Below are positions 820 through 5,110 of a DNA stretch of 5,110 nt, piece by piece. The stretch spans positions 1 through 5,110 of IMG/VR virus record IMGVR_UViG_2698536657_000013. One strand, 5' to 3'. The position numbers and the translations under genes were made by a program. Position 1 is the first letter of the stretch. The number at the start of each line of letters is the position of its first letter. The notes under the pieces were generated by a model that saw nothing but the letters and a program-made list of their open reading frames with translations, was not told where the DNA came from and ran no database searches. Origin of the DNA: a virus. Taxonomy: Duplodnaviria > Heunggongvirae > Uroviricota > Caudoviricetes.

Positions 820-839
820 GAATTATCCTATAAATCACT

Positions 840-1017
840 CTTTATTGTTTAGTTGTTAATTATTTTTAATCTGTCTTGTCAGAAAGTGCGAAATCGATCT
901 TGTATTTACATTTTGTTACATAATATAAATTGAACTAAGAATTTGTATTAAAATATTTTAATTTTTGTTCATGACATCTGAATGCATGAATAGTTCAGTT
1001 TAAATAAGGATTAAATC
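840..1017 (+). promoter_or_regulatory. AT-rich upstream region of the porin moron; candidate sigma70 promoter and RBS
   Basis: Intergenic stretch after the M stop (817-819) is strikingly AT-rich compared with the GC-rich tail genes. One candidate promoter is TTGTAT (900-905), 18 bp spacer, TATAAA (924-929). SD AAGGA at 1006-1010 lies 7 nt before ATG 1018. The exact promoter cannot be fixed from sequence alone. Confidence 0.35.
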
Positions 1018-2172
1018 ATGAAAAAAACGACAGTGGCACTTTCTGCTGTAGCAGTGGCAGTGATGTTTGCTGCGGGGGTGCAGGCAGCAGAAGTTTATAA
1101 TAAAGATGGTAATAAACTGGATCTTTACGGGCGTGTAACCGCTCTGCATTACTTCTCGGATGATAAAGGTAATGACGGAGACCAGACTTATGCTCGTCTC
1201 GGCTTTAAAGGCGAAACGCAGATTAATGATCAACTGACCGGATTTGGTCAGTGGGAATACCAGTTCTCTGGTAACAAAACGGAATCTGAAGGTTCCGCGG
1301 GAAATAAAACCCGTCTGGCATTTGCAGGTCTGAGATTTGCAGATGTTGGTACCATTGATTACGGACGTAACTATGGTATTGCTTATGATGTCGGATCATA
1401 TACTGACGTACTGCCTGAGTTTGGTGGTGATGGCTGGACGCAGACCGATAACTTTATGACGGCCCGAACTTCCGGTGTCCTGACTTACCGTAATACAGAC
1501 TTCTTCGGGCTGGTTGATGGTCTGAATTTTGCGGCGCAGTATCAGGGCAAAAATGAGCGTGATGACCTTCAGAAGGCTAATGGCGACGGGTATGGTTTCT
1601 CGGCCAGCTATGAGTTTGATGGTTTTGGTTTTGTCGCTGCGTATACCAAGTCAGATCGTACCGATAAGCAGGTTCAGGGGTTGAACGGTACTGCAGATGT
1701 TCTTGATCCTGAATCAGGTAAAAAGGTTGGAGAAAAAACAGTTGACTCAGGTAGTGTGGCAAAAGGTAAACATGCTGAATTCTGGGGAACTGGTCTTAAA
1801 TATGATGCCAATAACCTGTATCTGGCAGCAGTGTATTCTGAAACCCAGAATATGACGACCTTTGGTGATCAAGGTGTTGCGGATAAAGCTCAGAATATCG
1901 AAGCCGTTGTTCAGTATCAGTTTGATTTTGGTCTGCGCCCGTCCCTTGCCTACCTTCAGTCCCGCGGACAGGATGTTATGGTTGGTGGTGTGAACCATGG
2001 CGATCAGGATCTGGTTAAATATATTGATGTCGGTGCGACTTATTACTTTAACAAGAATATGTCCACCTATGTTGATTATAAAATTAACCTGATTGATGAA
2101 AGTGAATTTACCCGGAAAGCCGGTGTTGCGACAGATAATATCGTTGCTGTGGGTATGACTTATCAGTTCTGA
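1018..2172 (+). CDS. Outer-membrane general porin, OmpC/OmpF/PhoE family (prophage-borne NmpC/Lc-like lysogenic-conversion porin)
   Basis: 384-aa ORF. Signal peptide [23 protein letters not shown] followed by mature N-terminus [16 protein letters not shown]. Porin hallmark blocks: [109 protein letters not shown]. Ends in ...YQF, the beta-barrel C-terminal aromatic. Codon and base composition are more AT-rich than the flanking tail genes. Confidence 0.95.
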
Positions 2173-2198
2173 TTATTGCTGATAAGTTAATAAATACG

Positions 2199-2250
2199 GG
2201 CCGTCTGCCCTTACAGGCGGCCTGTATCAATGAAAACACAGTTTTCATTG
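2199..2250 (+). other. Two adjacent stem-loops in the porin 3' flank (RNA stability or protein-binding elements)
   Basis: Hairpin 1 at 2199-2222: GCCGTCTG / CAGGCGGC, 8 bp with one G-U pair and a 6-nt loop. Hairpin 2 at 2228-2250: perfect 10-bp inverted repeat CAATGAAAAC-aca-GTTTTCATTG. Neither is followed by a clear T-tract. Confidence 0.3.
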
Positions 2251-2345
2251 GTCACTGCGATCAGCAATTGCCATCTGGCATGTGCTGATTTAACTTTCTG
2301 TTATTACCTTTATTGGTTTTATTTTAAATTGGACTTTTATTGTTC

Positions 2346-2369
2346 GGGGCGCGTCTGCGCCCCTTTTTT
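2346..2369 (+). terminator. Rho-independent terminator ending the porin moron transcript, 12 nt upstream of L
   Basis: GGGGCGC (2346-2352), loop GTCT, GCGCCCC (2357-2363), followed by TTTTTT (2364-2369). Perfect 7-bp GC stem plus T-run. Confidence 0.7.
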
Positions 2370-2381
2370 ATGGGCGGATAT

Positions 2382-3090: not shown

Positions 3091-3834
3091 ATGACACAGA
3101 CTGAATCAGCGATTCTGGCGCATGCCCGGCGGTGTGCGCCAGCGGAGTCGTGCGGCTTCGTGATAAGCACCCCGGAGGGCGAACGGTACCAGCCCTGCGT
3201 GAATATCTCCGCAGAGCCGGAGGCGTATTTTCGTATTGCACCGGAAGACTGGCTGCAGGCACAGATGCAGGGGGAGATTATGGCGCTGGTCCACAGTCAT
3301 CCCGGTGGTCTGCCCTGGCTGAGCGAGGCTGACCGGCGGCTGCAGATAAAGAGTGCCCTGCCCTGGTGGCTGGTCTGCCGGGGCGACATTCACCGGTTCC
3401 GCTGTGTGCCGCACCTGACCGGACGGCGCTTTGAACACGGTGTGACGGACTGTTACAGCCTGTTCCGGGATGCATACCATCTGGCGGGGATAACGCTGCC
3501 GGATTTTGTGCGTGAGGATGACTGGTGGCGCAACGGCCAGAACCTGTACCTGGACAACCTGGCGGACAACGGCTTTTACCGGGTGTCTCCGTCCTGTGCA
3601 CAGGCGGGCGATATCCTGCTGTGCTGCTTTGGTTCATCGGTGCCGAATCATGCCGCCATTTACTGTGGCAACGGTGAACTGCTTCACCATATACCTGAAC
3701 AACTGAGTAAACGGGAGAGGTATTCTGAAAAATGGCAACGACGAACGCATTCTGTCTGGCGTCACCGCCACTGGTCCGTATCTGCCTTCACGGGGATTTA
3801 CAACGATTTGGTCGCCGCATCAGCCTGTATGTGA
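3091..3834 (+). CDS. Tail tip assembly protein K (lambda gpK-like); JAB/MPN (JAMM) metalloprotease-like domain plus NlpC/P60 domain
   Basis: ATG at 3091 (MTQTESAILAHARR...), 11 nt after the L stop. The ORF-track start at 2830 overlaps L in another frame and is rejected. JAMM motif HSHPGGLPWLSEAD (H-x-H-x7-S-x2-D) starts at nt 3292. NlpC/P60-like Cys (GVTDCYSLF) and His (VPNHAAIY). Overlaps the I gene by 103 nt as in lambda. Start is uncertain: lambda's own K annotation is shorter, so a later start is possible. Confidence 0.85.
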   Translation: MTQTESAILAHARRCAPAESCGFVISTPEGERYQPCVNISAEPEAYFRIAPEDWLQAQMQGEIMALVHSHPGGLPWLSEADRRLQIKSALPWWLVCRGDIHRFRCVPHLTGRRFEHGVTDCYSLFRDAYHLAGITLPDFVREDDWWRNGQNLYLDNLADNGFYRVSPSCAQAGDILLCCFGSSVPNHAAIYCGNGELLHHIPEQLSKRERYSEKWQRRTHSVWRHRHWSVSAFTGIYNDLVAASACM

Positions 3835-4412
3835 ACACGGCAGCGGAGGCCATCCGTGCCCTGTCGCTGCAGGTGCCGGGATTCCGCGGTCAGATGAACG
3901 AAGGCTGGTATCAGATACGTATTGCCGGTGAGGATACCGCGCCGGAGGCGGTGTATGCCCGTCTTCATGAGCCACTGAGCGGGAGGGCCGTGATTCATAT
4001 TGTACCGCGGCTGGCCGGAGCCGGGGGAAATGGTGTTTTTCAGGTGGTGCTGGGGGTTGCAGCGATTGTCGGGTCATTTTTCACTGGTGGTGCAACACTG
4101 GCGGCATGGGGCGCAGCCCTGAGTGCCGGAGGGCTGACTGCCACCACGATGCTGTTCTCACTGGGTGCCAGCATGATACTGGGTGGTGTGGCTCAGATGC
4201 TGGCCCCGAAGGCAAAGACGCCGGAGTATAAAAGTACGGATAACGGTAAACAGAACACGTATTTTTCGTCACTGGACAACATGATTGCCCAGGGTAACCC
4301 GATGCCGGTGCCTTACGGTGAAATGCTGGTTGGTTCACGACGGATATCCCAGGATATCAGCACCCGTGATGAGGGCGGAGACGGGAAAGTGGTGGTTATC
4401 GGGCGGGGATAA
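3732..4412 (+). CDS. Tail assembly protein I (lambda gpI-like; N-terminal ubiquitin-like beta-grasp domain)
   Basis: 226-aa ORF MATTNAFCLASPPLVRICLHGDLQRFGRRI... with gpI-like blocks (YQIRIAG, VIHIVPR.AGA, Gly/Ala-rich hydrophobic segment, GKQNTYFSSLDNM.AQGN, YGEM.VGSR). Starts inside the 3' end of K. Stop TAA at 4410-4412. Confidence 0.9.
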   Translation: MATTNAFCLASPPLVRICLHGDLQRFGRRISLYVNTAAEAIRALSLQVPGFRGQMNEGWYQIRIAGEDTAPEAVYARLHEPLSGRAVIHIVPRLAGAGGNGVFQVVLGVAAIVGSFFTGGATLAAWGAALSAGGLTATTMLFSLGASMILGGVAQMLAPKAKTPEYKSTDNGKQNTYFSSLDNMIAQGNPMPVPYGEMLVGSRRISQDISTRDEGGDGKVVVIGRG

Positions 4413-4451
4413 AAATAAAAAAAATCCCGCAGAGTTAGTGGAGCTGCGGGA
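4411..4451 (-). terminator. Rho-independent terminator, minus strand (cassette A)
   Basis: Read on the minus strand: stem TCCCGCAG / CTGCGGGA (4425-4451, 8 bp, 11-nt loop) followed by a U-run (plus-strand A-tract 4411-4424). The U-run abuts the stop codon of I, so it is convergent with the tail operon. Confidence 0.6.
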
Positions 4452-4509
4452 AATAACGATGAAGATTAATGTTATGGAGTTATTTTTTTGGGCAGAAAAA
4501 CATTAACGC
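4411..4509 (-). ncRNA. Putative small RNA, cassette A (about 100 nt, minus strand)
   Basis: Bounded by minus-strand -10 TATAAT (plus coordinates 4516-4521) and the terminator at 4411-4451. No convincing ORF with an RBS. Body contains A-rich runs and the pyrimidine motif AACUCC. Ends with a U-tail. Start is estimated, not mapped. Confidence 0.3.
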
Positions 4510-4542
4510 AGCGAAATTATAAGCGCTACATGGATTTTGCGA

Positions 4543-4564
4543 AAATGTGAAGAAATTCAGAAAT
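4543..4564. promoter_or_regulatory. CRP-like box (AAATGTGA-agaaat-TCAGAaat) upstream of the minus-strand -10 of cassette A
   Basis: Matches the CRP consensus AAATGTGA-N6-TCACATTT with one half-site mismatch (TCAGA). The 5' T of TGTGA is 25 bp from the minus-strand TATAAT, placing the site centre roughly 41-45 bp upstream of the predicted start (class II-like). Confidence 0.35.
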
Positions 4565-4640
4565 TTTTTGCTGCAGAGGTGCAGGGAGCTTGCCGGGTAT
4601 CTGTGGCAGAAGACAGAAAACATCATGCCGGGGTTAAGGG

Positions 4641-4676
4641 ATAAAAAAATCCCGCAGAGTTAGCGGAGCTGCGGGA
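4641..4676 (-). terminator. Rho-independent terminator, minus strand (cassette B)
   Basis: Same 8-bp stem (4650-4657 / 4669-4676) followed on the minus strand by 7 U (plus-strand A-run 4643-4649). Confidence 0.6.
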
Positions 4677-4740
4677 CAGAACCGATGAAGATTAACGTTC
4701 AAGGAGTTTTGTTTTTATTGACCCGAAAAAACTGTAACGC
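4641..4740 (-). ncRNA. Putative small RNA, cassette B (about 100 nt, minus strand)
   Basis: Bounded by minus-strand -10 TATCAT (4747-4752) and the terminator at 4641-4676. Body shares AACUCCUUGAACGUUAAUCUUCAUCG with cassette A. Confidence 0.3.
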
Positions 4741-4773
4741 CCCGGAATGATATCTGCCATGGGGACGCACAGG

Positions 4774-4795
4774 AAATGTGAAGAAATTCAGACTT
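4774..4795. promoter_or_regulatory. CRP-like box, cassette B
   Basis: AAATGTGA-agaaat-TCAGActt. Same 25-bp offset to minus-strand TATCAT (4747-4752). Confidence 0.35.
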
Positions 4796-4877
4796 TTTCT
4801 GTCGCAGGTTTACAGAACGGATTACCGCCGGGGTACCAGTGGCGTAAATGAGCCGGATGTTGTGGTGCGGCTGAAGC

Positions 4878-4917
4878 AAAAAAATCTCCCGTAATATCGC
4901 CGGATACTGACGGGAGA
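4878..4917 (-). terminator. Rho-independent terminator, minus strand (cassette C)
   Basis: Stem TCTCCCGT / ACGGGAGA (4885-4892 / 4910-4917) followed on the minus strand by 7 U (plus-strand A-run 4878-4884). Sequence differs from A and B but pairing is fully preserved. Confidence 0.55.
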
Positions 4918-4980
4918 CGAATAGTCACCTTAAGGAGGTCTGATAATTATTGCTTTTATTGAGCAAAAAAACTGTAACGC
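4878..4980 (-). ncRNA. Putative small RNA, cassette C (about 100 nt, minus strand)
   Basis: Bounded by minus-strand -10 TATAAT (4987-4992) and the terminator at 4878-4917. Body contains ACCUCCUUA, identical to the 16S rRNA anti-Shine-Dalgarno sequence. Confidence 0.3.
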
Positions 4981-5013
4981 TGCATCATTATAGCGGCTAC
5001 AGGCAATTGCCGG

Positions 5014-5035
5014 AAATGTGAAGAATTTCAGAAAT
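5014..5035. promoter_or_regulatory. CRP-like box, cassette C
   Basis: AAATGTGA-agaatt-TCAGAaat. Same 25-bp offset to minus-strand TATAAT (4987-4992). Confidence 0.35.
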
Positions 5036-5051
5036 TTTATTCCGTCATGAC

Positions 5052-5083
5052 ACAGGCACCCTCCGGGGTGCCTGTCGTTTTCT
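5052..5083 (+). terminator. Rho-independent terminator, plus strand
   Basis: ACAGGCACCC (5052-5061), loop TCCG, GGGTGCCTGT (5066-5075), then cgTTTTcT (5076-5083). Perfect 10-bp stem. The T-run is modest (4 T). Confidence 0.5.
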
Positions 5084-5110
5084 GGCATAAACAGATTCAG
5101 ACATCAGACA

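What the first reader, a model, noticed from the sequence alone, without database searches (positions are those of the whole stretch)
4411..5110. Three tandem ~230-bp degenerate cassettes occupy the space after tail gene I
Where lambda runs straight from I into J, this element has about 700 bp with no credible ORF. It is organised as three direct repeats of one cassette, each with the same ordered motifs: A-tract plus hairpin, then AAAAAcwkTAACGC, then AAATGTGAAGAAATTCAGA. Cassettes A and B are close copies; C is diverged but has the same layout. Conservation is at the nucleotide and structure level, not in any reading frame, which points to RNA genes or regulatory DNA rather than protein.
Basis: seen in the sequence. 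Interest (0 to 1): 0.75.

Follow-up and report, generated by a model that had tools for sequence, protein, structure and literature searches.

The report
Three tandem prophage small-RNA genes
The 700 bases between tail genes I and J hold three diverged, head-to-tail copies of a gene on the opposite strand for a known Hfq-dependent prophage small RNA (PasB in EPEC, EcOnc22-24 in EHEC); the RNA family is known, but the three-gene array has not been described.

Summary
Three cassettes of about 230 bp, with periods of 231 and 240, fill the I-J spacer, and their similarity is far above chance (z = 19-44).

Read on the minus strand, each cassette is a complete small-RNA gene. It has a conserved upstream box (TTCTGAAnnTCTTCACATTT, with a CRP-like core), a -10 element, a 93-103 nt RNA that starts GCGUUA, and a rho-independent terminator with 7-8 U.

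The cassettes are homologous to PasB. PasB is the Hfq-dependent sRNA that lies in the I-J spacer of prophage PP6 in EPEC E2348/69. The cassettes also match EcOnc22/23/24, which lie in the I-J spacers of Sakai prophages Sp15, Sp14 and Sp11.

One such gene is the norm:
- 79 of 80 loci retrieved through protein I have at least one copy.
- 1,825 of 5,426 complete E. coli genomes have one. RefSeq annotated no feature under the 40 matches listed.
- Arrays are rare. Three loci have two copies and one locus has three. 18 genomes hold most (at least 80%) of this array.

The three RNAs keep the promoter box and the terminator module but differ in the single-stranded region that probably pairs with targets. 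All three carry a CUCCUU-type stretch that resembles the anti-Shine-Dalgarno sequence.

Verdict: a real feature of a known family in a new tandem arrangement, of moderate interest. Transcription and targets of these three copies are inferred, not shown.

The parts
4417..4509 (-). sRNA gene A (PasB family), predicted 93-nt RNA: GCGUUAAUGUUUUUCUGCCCAAAAAAAUAACUCCAUAACAUUAAUCUUCAUCGUUAUUU + terminator. The terminator stem arms are 4425-4432 and 4444-4451; the U-tail is 4417-4424.
   Evidence: The covariance model R1 scores 92.2 bits, E 2e-14 (this copy is in the training set). It is 86% identical to the EcOnc22-locus RNA and 80% to PasB. The fold is -17.5 kcal/mol, z -3.9, with a terminator hairpin.
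4516..4564 (-). Promoter A: -10 TATAAT at 4521-4516, -35 TTCGCA at 4543-4538, and the conserved upstream box (CRP-like core TGTGAAGAAATTCAGA, 4546-4561 on the + strand).
   Evidence: The promoter scan finds a 10 of 12 match with a 16-bp spacer. The box matches the CRP core with one mismatch; 3 matches were found where 0.15 are expected. The box is the best-conserved upstream stretch in 32 of 32 unique promoters from loci retrieved through protein I.
4643..4740 (-). sRNA gene B, predicted 98-nt RNA. The terminator stem arms are 4650-4657 and 4669-4676; the U-tail is 4643-4649.
   Evidence: R1 scores 86.3 bits, E 3e-13. It is 83% identical to PasB and 88% to single-copy alleles such as L252. The terminator scan finds it at 4667-4651 on the minus strand.
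4747..4795 (-). Promoter B: -10 TATCAT at 4752-4747, a poor -35, and the conserved box (core 4777-4792).
   Evidence: The same TATCAT -10 and the same box occur in alleles that are the sole copy in other prophages (L256 type). The CRP-like core has one mismatch.
4878..4980 (-). sRNA gene C, predicted 103-nt RNA, the most diverged copy. Its single-stranded region is CAGACCUCCUUAAGGUGACUAUUCG. It has a different, longer terminator stem (4886-4916) and a U-tail at 4878-4884.
   Evidence: R1 scores 53.4 bits, E 4e-7. The RNA is 100% identical in the other three-copy locus, L245. The fold is -25.2 kcal/mol, z -3.0.
4987..5035 (-). Promoter C: -10 TATAAT at 4992-4987, a poor -35, and the conserved box (core 5017-5032).
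   Evidence: The same promoter type (TTTCCGGCAATTGCCTGTAGCCGC[A/T]ATAAT) drives single-copy alleles, for example L249.
5052..5085 (+). Plus-strand hairpin of 10 bp followed by a U-rich tract (CGUUUUCUGG), just upstream of the J ribosome-binding site. It looks like an intrinsic terminator. Only decayed relics of it remain upstream of cassettes A (about 4583-4612) and B (about 4820-4845).
   Evidence: The terminator scan finds it. The fold is -27 kcal/mol, z -5.4. Across 12 distinct sequences 98.3% of cells are paired, with one compensatory pair (C-G to U-A). Six one-sided changes stay paired as G.U on the + strand only.
4629..4643 (+). Junction relic CGGGGTTAAGGGATA, which resembles the last codons of gene I (CGGGGATAA at 4404-4412). 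A weaker relic, GTTGTGGTGCGGCTGA, lies at about 4858-4873.
   Evidence: Repeat D3 covers 4404-4457 and 4629-4682 at 83%. This implies that the duplicated unit was the whole spacer from the end of I to the start of J. The weaker relic is my own reading of the sequence.

Best explanation
The I-J spacer carries three independently transcribed genes on the minus strand, antisense to the late tail operon. They encode Hfq-dependent, trans-acting small RNAs of the PasB / EcOnc22-24 family.

Each gene has its own sigma-70 promoter. The promoter is preceded by a family-wide conserved box, probably an activator site; cAMP-CRP is my best guess.

Each gene also has its own rho-independent terminator. The terminator hairpin and its U-tail, together with an A-rich ARN tract, would form the Hfq-binding scaffold.

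Between these modules lies a single-stranded region that contains a CUCCUU-type stretch resembling the anti-Shine-Dalgarno sequence. In A and B it also contains the conserved UUAAUCUUCAU. This region is the likely seed that pairs with ribosome-binding or start-codon regions of target mRNAs.

The three copies share the regulatory and Hfq modules but differ in the seed. The array would therefore put three target specificities under one signal in the lysogen.

The array arose by duplication of the whole spacer, from the end of I to the start of J, and by exchange with alleles from other lambdoid prophages.

Shown here: the anatomy, the homology, the position and the copy-number variation. Taken from the literature for homologues: expression, size and Hfq dependence. 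Inferred: transcription of these three copies, the identity of the regulator, the seeds and the targets.
For: Anatomy: every cassette has the box, a -10, a 93-103 nt body and a terminator with 7-8 U on the minus strand.

Homology to PasB:
- The PasB coordinates (NC_011601.1, 1466343-1466261, minus strand, 83 nt) and its northern probe AATCCCGCAGTGATCGCGGAGCT come from PMC8550237 table S6.
- These coordinates fall in the I-J spacer of PP6.
- That spacer aligns with the cassettes over its whole length.
- RNA identity to PasB is 80% for A, 83% for B and 75% for C.
- In that paper PasB was validated by northern blot, has 37 RIL-seq partners, and falls by log2 -6.8 in a hfq deletion.

Homology to EcOnc22/23/24:
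- Tree et al. 2014 table S2 lists them with a northern band of about 85 nt that is destabilised in a hfq deletion.
- Model hits lie in the I-J spacers of Sp15, Sp14 and Sp11, on the strand opposite to I and J. They sit 122-124 bp from the published peak starts in all three. That is consistent with a shift of about 127 bp between the two versions of the genome record, which I inferred from one other Sakai RNA.

Family-wide constraint:
- 79 of 80 loci retrieved through protein I have a hit directly after I, always antisense.
- The -10 keeps A at position 2 and T at position 6 in all variants, and the box is invariant in 31 of 32 unique promoters, while the sequence around them varies.
- The most conserved internal stretch is UUAAUCUUC, and most of its substitutions are transitions.

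Not coding:
- No small ORF has a Pfam match.
- Single-base length changes in the U-run shift the frame.
- The antisense mini-ORF survives in only 20 of 46 variants, with frameshifted products.

All three copies are intact. C is 100% and B 97% identical in the independent locus L245, and 18 complete genomes have a match covering at least 80% of the array.
Against: - There are no expression data for this array. Transcription of A, B and C rests on homology and on intact signals.
- The terminator stem barely varies in sequence, so there is almost no covariation support for it. RNAalifold recovered only 3 pairs.
- The folds of B and of PasB are not more stable than shuffles (z -0.9 and -0.7).
- My predicted +1 gives RNAs of 91-103 nt, whereas PasB is annotated as 83 nt and EcOnc22 as about 85 nt. 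Either the 5' 16 nt are processed off or the start site is elsewhere.
- The CRP-like core is centred at about -44.5 from the predicted start, not at the canonical -41.5 or -61.5, so activation by CRP is uncertain.
- B and C have poor -35 elements.
- No target is known for any member, and the RIL-seq paper derived no seed for PasB.
Confidence: 0.8

Rival explanations
1. Only one copy works. This would most likely be the I-proximal copy A, which occupies the position of the single gene in other prophages. B and C would then be decaying by-products of an unequal crossover with no function of their own.
For: - Arrays are rare: 4 of 80 loci retrieved through protein I, and 18 of 5,426 genomes.
- B and C have weak -35 hexamers.
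- C scores only 53 bits.
- The J-proximal cassette of the two-copy arrays lacks the canonical -10 and scores 28-30 bits.
- The plus-strand hairpin copies inside the array have clearly decayed.
Against: - B and C keep every functional signal intact: the box, a -10 with A2 and T6, the GCGUUA start, and a hairpin followed by 7 U. The non-functional parts of the same duplicated unit (the hairpin and the relic of the end of I) have decayed.
- C replaced the whole terminator stem with a different, stronger one.
- B's promoter type is the sole promoter in many single-copy prophages.
- C and B are 100% and 97% identical in L245, although the I-proximal cassette there is a different allele.
Confidence: 0.12
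2. The cassettes act mainly in cis on the phage's own late operon. Convergent transcription, and pairing of the RNAs with the fully complementary I-J stretch of the late mRNA, would lower or time the expression of J (the host-range tail tip protein). More cassettes would give stronger control. The plus-strand terminator hairpin before J would belong to the same control point.
For: - The genes always lie antisense inside the late operon, exactly between I and J.
- A conserved plus-strand terminator-like hairpin sits just before the J ribosome-binding site.
- The RNAs are complementary to any late transcript that reads through.
Against: - PasB makes 37 trans interactions on Hfq in EPEC, 30 of them with mRNAs, including core-genome genes.
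- The RNAs do not overlap the coding sequence or the ribosome-binding site of I or J. RNA A ends 5 nt after the I stop codon, and RNA C starts about 130 nt before the J ribosome-binding site.
- In some prophages a sodC gene replaces the promoter, which shows that the slot tolerates unrelated cargo.
- This reading does not exclude trans action.
Confidence: 0.1
3. Each cassette is a small toxin-antitoxin-like pair, comparable to the tandem ldr/rdl or ibs/sib repeats of E. coli. A short plus-strand peptide (MKINV..., 15-22 aa) would be controlled by the antisense RNA.
For: - A plus-strand ATG lies opposite the conserved UUAAUCUUCAU in A, B and PasB, giving MKINVMELFFWAEKH, MKINVQGVLFLL... and MKINVKELFLLL....
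- The tandem direct-repeat organisation resembles the LDR and SIB loci (my own knowledge).
Against: - Only 20 of 46 unique variants keep the ATG. The commonest allele has ACG and no ORF.
- The peptides change completely after residue 5 because of frameshifts.
- The length of the U/A run varies by single bases.
- C has no such ORF.
- No small ORF has a Pfam match.
Confidence: 0.03
4. The region is a decayed fragment of a protein-coding gene, or purely structural DNA such as a recombination site or repeat element, with no RNA product.
For: Nothing is annotated here in the 40 RefSeq matches listed, and Rfam has no match.
Against: - Homologues are experimentally detected RNAs.
- The promoter and terminator signals are the conserved parts.
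- No frame is conserved and there is no Pfam match.
Confidence: 0.02

Closest known systems
PasB (pathogenicity-associated sRNA B) of EPEC O127:H6 E2348/69, prophage PP6. Described by Pearl Mizrahi et al. 2021, Sci Adv (PMC8550237); distribution surveyed by Zhu, Shabalina and Storz 2026, bioRxiv 10.64898/2026.05.13.724894.
   Same: - Same slot (the I-J spacer of a lambdoid tail module) and same antisense orientation.
- Same promoter box, -10 element, GCGUUA start and A-rich tract.
- Same CUCCUU and UUGAUCUUCAU motifs.
- Same CCCGCAG...CUGCGGG terminator.
- The whole 240-bp spacer aligns.
   Different: - Here there are three genes in tandem, not one.
- RNA identity to PasB is only 75-83%, with different bases in the putative seed.
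- C has another terminator stem and lacks UUAAUCUUC.
- The 2026 survey used word size 28 and found only near-identical variants. Its smallest distance between copies was 28 kb, and it concluded that copies come from separate prophages, not from tandem duplication.
EcOnc22 / EcOnc23 / EcOnc24 of EHEC O157:H7 Sakai, prophages Sp15, Sp14 and Sp11 (Tree et al. 2014, Mol Cell, PMC4104026, table S2).
   Same: - They are Hfq-crosslinked sRNAs in the I-J spacers, on the strand opposite to I and J.
- The northern band is about 85 nt and is destabilised without Hfq.
- Cassette A is 86% identical to this allele.
   Different: - There is one copy per prophage.
- They were never characterised beyond the table.
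- As far as I found, the link between EcOnc22-24 and PasB is not stated in the papers read. Table S6 of PMC8550237 lists no EHEC homologue for PasB.
AgvB / AsxR anti-sRNAs of EHEC lambdoid prophages (Rfam RF02702, RF02703).
   Same: - Prophage cargo sRNAs that bind Hfq.
- Modular design: a conserved 3' scaffold joined to a variable pairing region.
- ARN motifs.
- Several related copies per genome.
   Different: - Different sequence: no Rfam match even at E up to 10.
- Different slot: downstream of PR', near stx and the lysis genes.
- Shorter, at 51-60 nt.
- They act as sponges of core sRNAs, which has not been shown for the PasB family.
Tandem paralogous sRNA genes that share a regulator, such as OmrA/OmrB in E. 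coli and PrrF1/PrrF2 in Pseudomonas (my own knowledge).
   Same: Adjacent, independently terminated paralogues with the same upstream regulatory site and partly different bodies.
   Different: - Those are core-genome genes in pairs, and their seed is the conserved part.
- Here the genes are phage cargo, there are three copies, and the putative seed is the part that differs.
HnrS (EcOnc10-12), the multicopy prophage sRNA that represses hha (Poudyal et al. 2026, PMC13502914).
   Same: A multicopy, Hfq-associated sRNA in the late regions of EHEC and EPEC prophages, with up to about 9 copies per genome.
   Different: An unrelated sequence at a different slot, between Rz and the small terminase subunit in Sp10. 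The model gives no hit there (E 0.71). It is not the same RNA.

Membership tests
PasB / EcOnc22-24 prophage sRNA family | The gene lies in the spacer between tail genes I and J of a lambdoid prophage, on the opposite strand. | tested here: met
   In the window, I ends at 4412 and J starts at about 5126. PasB lies in the same slot, as do the Sakai loci. Of 80 loci retrieved through protein I, 79 have an antisense hit directly after I.
PasB / EcOnc22-24 prophage sRNA family | Sequence homology to the experimentally defined RNA. | tested here: met
   The whole spacer aligns with the PasB locus. RNA identity to PasB is 80% (A), 83% (B) and 75% (C); identity to the EcOnc22 locus is 86%, 84% and 66%. 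C is the weakest member, at 53 bits.
PasB / EcOnc22-24 prophage sRNA family | A rho-independent terminator with a U-tail of at least 6 (the Hfq proximal-face module). | tested here: met
   The stems are 8, 9 and 15 bp, followed by 8, 7 and 7 U.
PasB / EcOnc22-24 prophage sRNA family | Its own promoter. | tested here: met
   The -10 is TATAAT, TATCAT and TATAAT, placed 7 nt before the conserved GCGTTA. Only A has a good -35. The -10 A2 and T6 and the upstream box are conserved across the family. Promoter activity was not measured.
PasB / EcOnc22-24 prophage sRNA family | A transcript of about 83-85 nt that binds Hfq and is unstable without it. | not testable with these tools
   This is shown only for homologues: northern blot, RIL-seq and hfq-deletion RNA-seq for PasB, and CRAC and northern blot for EcOnc22.
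AgvB / AsxR anti-sRNA family (Rfam RF02702/RF02703) | A match to the family covariance model, and a location downstream of PR'. | tested here: not met
   cmscan of both strands at E up to 10 gives no AgvB or AsxR match. The location is the tail operon.
CRP-activated promoter (class I or II) | A TGTGA-N6-TCACA core. | tested here: met
   Each box is TGTGAAGAA[A/T]TTCAGA, a 9 of 10 core match. These are the only three matches in the window, against 0.15 expected.
CRP-activated promoter (class I or II) | The site is centred near -41.5 (class II) or near -61.5, -71.5 and so on (class I). | tested here: not met
   Counting from the -10 and the predicted +1 (the G of GCGTTA) puts the centre at -44.5 (my count on the sequences). 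The start site has not been mapped, so an error of 2-3 nt is possible.
CRP-activated promoter (class I or II) | Expression depends on CRP and cAMP. | not testable with these tools
   There is only indirect support. PasB is higher in overnight static LB than in exponential DMEM, the opposite of the pattern shown by the sRNA Spf. That Spf is repressed by CRP is my own knowledge. Growth phase, RpoS or oxygen could explain the same pattern.
Type I toxin-antitoxin tandem repeats (ldr/rdl, ibs/sib) | A conserved small ORF opposite the antisense RNA. | tested here: not met
   The start codon is kept in only 20 of 46 variants, and the products are frameshifted.

The most novel reading that the evidence does not exclude
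The I-J slot works as a seed-diversifying sRNA array. A fixed promoter box and a fixed Hfq scaffold are reused, while recombination between co-resident lambdoid prophages stacks alleles with different pairing regions. A single prophage then delivers several co-regulated regulators.

Copy C carries ACCUCCUUA, which is identical to the 3' end of 16S rRNA (my own knowledge of that sequence). It could act as a general mimic of the anti-Shine-Dalgarno sequence, or as a sponge, rather than as a gene-specific regulator.
Probability: 0.15. Interest if true: 0.6.

Novelty: new variant of a known kind. Interest (0 to 1): 0.4.

Why it matters
PasB-type genes are among the commonest unannotated features of E. 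coli. They occur in about a third of complete genomes, with up to 10 places per genome, and RefSeq showed no feature under any of the 40 matches listed. They are abundant partners of Hfq in both EPEC and EHEC.

This analysis adds five points to what is published.
1. PasB and EcOnc22-24 are the same family.
2. The family is far more diverse than the BLAST-based survey saw.
3. Nearly every prophage with this tail module carries one copy in the I-J slot.
4. All members share an upstream box, which predicts a common regulator.
5. Some STEC prophages stack two or three diverged copies.

If the three RNAs have different targets, one prophage could rewire several host pathways under one signal. The finding also gives a concrete case for an Rfam family and for genome annotation.

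It is not a new kind of element.

Tried and rejected
- **Rfam.** A scan of the whole window, both strands, at E up to 10 found nothing relevant. The only match in the region was a terminator-only match to anti-hemB at 17 bits.
- **Tandem Repeats Finder.** No array was reported, because the copies are too diverged.
- **RNAalifold on 46 family members.** Only 3 pairs were found and there was no covariation. The terminator stem is conserved in sequence, so it is uninformative.
- **Species-representative genomes.** I scanned them for the 18-base box. Nearly all hits were chance matches in unrelated phyla. Of the first 100 loci, only E. albertii and a contaminant contig labelled Streptomyces carry the RNA.
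- **HnrS (EcOnc10-12).** I considered it because it is multicopy, with up to 9 copies. I rejected it because it lies at a different locus and has a different sequence.
- **svsR of prophage NC-SV.** Rejected: it lies at the 3' end of cI.
- **AgvB and AsxR.** Rejected.
- **A 5' stem between GCGUUAAUG and AACAUUAAU.** It is predicted in A but is not supported in B or in PasB, so I dropped it.
- **Other readings of the box.** By eye I tried a LexA box, a marbox, sigma-32, sigma-E and sigma-54 promoters, and OmpR and IHF sites. None fits as well as CRP. This was my own inspection, not a test.
- **Plus-strand mini-ORF.** Rejected.
- **PasB target list.** I did not extract it from the RIL-seq tables, because the rows are scattered over about 40 parts.
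Full report
**Context**

The window is the tail module of a lambdoid prophage. It contains the end of the tape-measure gene, then M (478-819), an inserted porin gene (1018-2172), L, K (to 3834) and I (3732-4412), followed by 700 bp without a credible ORF.

A 99.6%-identical stretch in E. coli FHI_NMBU_11 has the same gene order. There J starts 16 bp beyond the end of the window. The finding therefore covers the complete I-J spacer.

- The repeat finder reports a three-copy family with spacings of 231 and 240 bp, and an 83%-identical repeat of the hairpin region.
- The three cassettes align at 73% mean column identity.
- Their local alignment scores (124, 78 and 58) lie 19-44 standard deviations above dinucleotide shuffles. 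Comparisons with other parts of the window stay at shuffle level.
- Tandem Repeats Finder misses the array because the copies are under 70% alike.

**Anatomy on the minus strand**

Read on the minus strand, every cassette has the layout of a small-RNA gene, in this order:

1. An AT-rich conserved box, AAAATTTCTGAA(T/A)TTCTTCACATTT.
2. A -35 region: TTCGCA in A, poor in B and C.
3. A -10 element: TATAAT, TATCAT and TATAAT.
4. Seven bases later, the invariant GCGTTA.
5. A U-run, a short G+C patch and an A-rich tract (AAUAAAAACAAAAC in B).
6. CUCC(U/A)U.
7. In A and B, UUAAUCUUCAU.
8. A G+C-rich hairpin followed by 7-8 U.

The promoter scan picks up A, with a 10 of 12 match. The terminator scan picks up B's hairpin on the minus strand. 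The predicted RNAs are 4509-4417 (93 nt), 4740-4643 (98 nt) and 4980-4878 (103 nt).

All three fold with the terminator hairpin. A and C are significantly more stable than shuffles and B is not.

**Identity**

Rfam has no match on either strand. The literature does.

*PasB.* Table S6 of Pearl Mizrahi et al. 2021 gives PasB of EPEC E2348/69 as an 83-nt minus-strand RNA at NC_011601.1 1466343-1466261. Its northern probe, AATCCCGCAGTGATCGCGGAGCT, is nearly the terminator sequence of cassettes A and B. Those coordinates fall between the I and J genes of prophage PP6. The whole 240-bp spacer there aligns with each cassette.

PasB was validated by northern blot. It has 37 Hfq-mediated partners and drops by log2 -6.8 without Hfq.

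*EcOnc22-24.* In EHEC Sakai, table S2 of Tree et al. 2014 lists EcOnc22, 23 and 24 in Sp15, Sp14 and Sp11 as homologous Hfq-bound RNAs, with a northern band of about 85 nt that is destabilised without Hfq.

I built a covariance model from 46 distinct family members. It hits the I-J spacers of exactly these three prophages, on the strand opposite to I and J. The hits lie 122-124 bp from the published peak starts in all three. That constant offset fits the shift of about 127 bp between the two versions of the Sakai record. I inferred that shift from one other Sakai RNA whose terminator I could locate in the newer record.

So PasB and EcOnc22-24 are one family, and cassettes A, B and C belong to it. 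RNA identity to PasB is 80%, 83% and 75%, and A is 86% identical to the Sakai allele.

**How common, and how many copies**

- I retrieved 80 prophage loci through protein I, independently of the RNA.
- Of these, 79 have a model hit starting within about 10 nt of the I stop codon, always antisense. The one exception is truncated.
- Three loci have two hits. One locus (L245) has three, as the window does.
- Spacer lengths cluster at about 240 bp (one gene), 345, 424 (two genes), 715 (three genes) and 854 bp.
- Cassette A with its promoter finds 5,435 places in 1,825 of 5,426 complete E. coli genomes, up to 10 per genome. No feature was annotated under any of the 40 matches listed.
- A match covering at least 80% of the array is present in 18 genomes.
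- Deposited Stx phages hold a single copy.
- Among the species-representative genomes screened, only E. albertii (plus one contaminant contig) has the gene.

The 2026 survey of Pas sRNAs used BLAST with word size 28. It saw only near-identical PasB variants, found a minimum of 28 kb between copies, and argued against tandem duplication. Cassettes A-C share no 28-base word with E2348/69 PasB. This is by my inspection. They would therefore have been invisible to that search.

**What is conserved tells what matters**

In the sample retrieved through protein I, 32 distinct promoter regions were compared.
- The box TTCTGAAnnTCTTCACATTT is invariant in 31 of them.
- The -10 always keeps A at position 2 and T at position 6.
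- GCGTTA is nearly invariant.
- The -35, the spacer and everything further upstream vary.

Inside the RNA, the best-conserved unpaired stretch is UUAAUCUUC, and most of its substitutions are transitions. This agrees with the survey's proposal that the PasB seed lies just upstream of the terminator.

The sequence does not code for protein.
- The small ORFs have no Pfam match.
- The U-run varies in length by single bases.
- The plus-strand mini-ORF opposite the seed is kept in only 20 of 46 variants, with frameshifted products.

**The regulator is a hypothesis**

Each box contains TGTGAAGAA(A/T)TTCAGA, a 9 of 10 match to the CRP core. These are the only three such matches in the window, where 0.15 are expected.

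PasB is higher in overnight static LB than in exponential DMEM, the reverse of the pattern shown by the sRNA Spf. That Spf is repressed by CRP is my own knowledge.

Against CRP, the site is centred at about -44.5 from the predicted start, which is not a canonical position. Growth phase could also explain the expression pattern. I put CRP at roughly one in three. An UP element or another factor remain open.

**How the array arose**

Behind the terminator of B lies CGGGGTTAAGGGATA, a relic of the last codons of I.

Upstream of the boxes of A and B lie decayed copies of the hairpin that, in single-copy spacers, precedes J. The duplicated unit was therefore the entire spacer.

The copies are not recent duplicates of one another: RNA identity between them is 66-83%.
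- B is closer to single-copy alleles of other prophages (88%) than to A (83%).
- A is 94% identical to the I-proximal copy of L242, a two-copy locus, and 87% identical to single-copy alleles.
- C's promoter is the type that drives single-copy alleles such as L249.
- L245 has the same C and B but a different I-proximal allele.

This pattern points to exchange between co-resident lambdoid prophages.

**The plus-strand hairpin**

At 5052-5075 a 10-bp hairpin followed by a U-rich tract lies just before the J ribosome-binding site.

Across 12 distinct sequences 98% of cells pair. One pair changes on both sides. Six one-sided changes remain G.U pairs only when read on the plus strand. It is therefore a plus-strand RNA element that looks like a terminator.

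Its role is unknown. It may stop stray transcription from entering J in the lysogen, or it may be part of the J leader.

**Mechanism and confidence**

With about 0.8 confidence, these are three independently transcribed genes for Hfq-dependent sRNAs of the PasB family.

Less certain, at about 0.5, is that all three are functional with different target sets. The support is that every signal is intact while the non-functional parts of the duplicated unit have decayed.

The pairing regions all contain an element that resembles the anti-Shine-Dalgarno sequence.
- A has CUCCAU and B has CUCCUU.
- C has ACCUCCUUA, which equals the 3' end of 16S rRNA (my own knowledge).
- C lacks UUAAUCUUC.

No target is known for any member.

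A cis-antisense effect on the late mRNA is possible and does not exclude trans action.

**Verdict**

The element belongs to a family described in 2014 and 2021 and surveyed in 2026. The new points are the tandem three-gene arrangement with diverged pairing regions, the EcOnc22-24 = PasB link, the shared promoter box, and the near-universal occupancy of the I-J slot. Interest is moderate.

Noticed in passing
window 820-2370 (gene at 1018-2172, + strand): A 384-aa OmpC/OmpD-like porin gene is inserted between tail genes M and L. It has its own AT-rich upstream region and two terminator-like hairpins downstream (about 2196-2226 and 2345-2368). RefSeq calls it 'porin OmpC'. The closest porins in deposited phage genomes are only 69% identical. 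It is probably a lysogenic-conversion gene in an unusual slot.
   Followed up: partly
L257 3178-4040 (also L248, L265, L271, L277, L280, L282, L286, L288, L289, L292): In at least 11 of the 80 related prophages the I-J spacer is 854 bp and carries a minus-strand Cu,Zn superoxide dismutase (sodC-like) gene with its own terminator. This gene replaces the PasB promoter and box. The PasB-like RNA body and its terminator remain downstream without a recognisable -10. The I-J junction is therefore a general slot for cargo genes.
   Followed up: partly
L264 3178-3530 (345-bp spacers; also L266 and L317): An extra minus-strand terminator-like hairpin (AACCCCGGTATCAGCAGATACCGGGGTTTTCTTTC) lies between J and the PasB promoter. 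It may mark another small transcript.
   Followed up: no
L242 1778-1864, L244 3360-3446, L247 3361-3447: These are two-copy arrays with a spacing of 179 bp. The J-proximal copy resembles cassette C (CUCCUUAAGGUGACUAUUCG and the same kind of terminator). It has about 16 extra bases between the box and a weak -10 (TAGATT) and lacks the GCGUUA start. It scores 28-30 bits.
   Followed up: partly
window 5052-5085 (+ strand): A conserved plus-strand hairpin and U-tract lie just before the J ribosome-binding site. The hairpin shows one compensatory pair, and its wobble pairs form only on the plus strand. Its function is unknown.
   Followed up: yes
L186 2177-2272: A 3.4-kb contig in an assembly labelled Streptomyces flavalbus carries a full-scoring PasB-like gene (91 bits). 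This is almost certainly contamination of that assembly by an E. coli prophage.
   Followed up: no
window 2228-2294 (- strand): There is a sub-threshold Rfam match to the E. coli sRNA C0299 (17.8 bits against a gathering score of 40, E 7.9), just downstream of the porin gene. It is probably chance.
   Followed up: no
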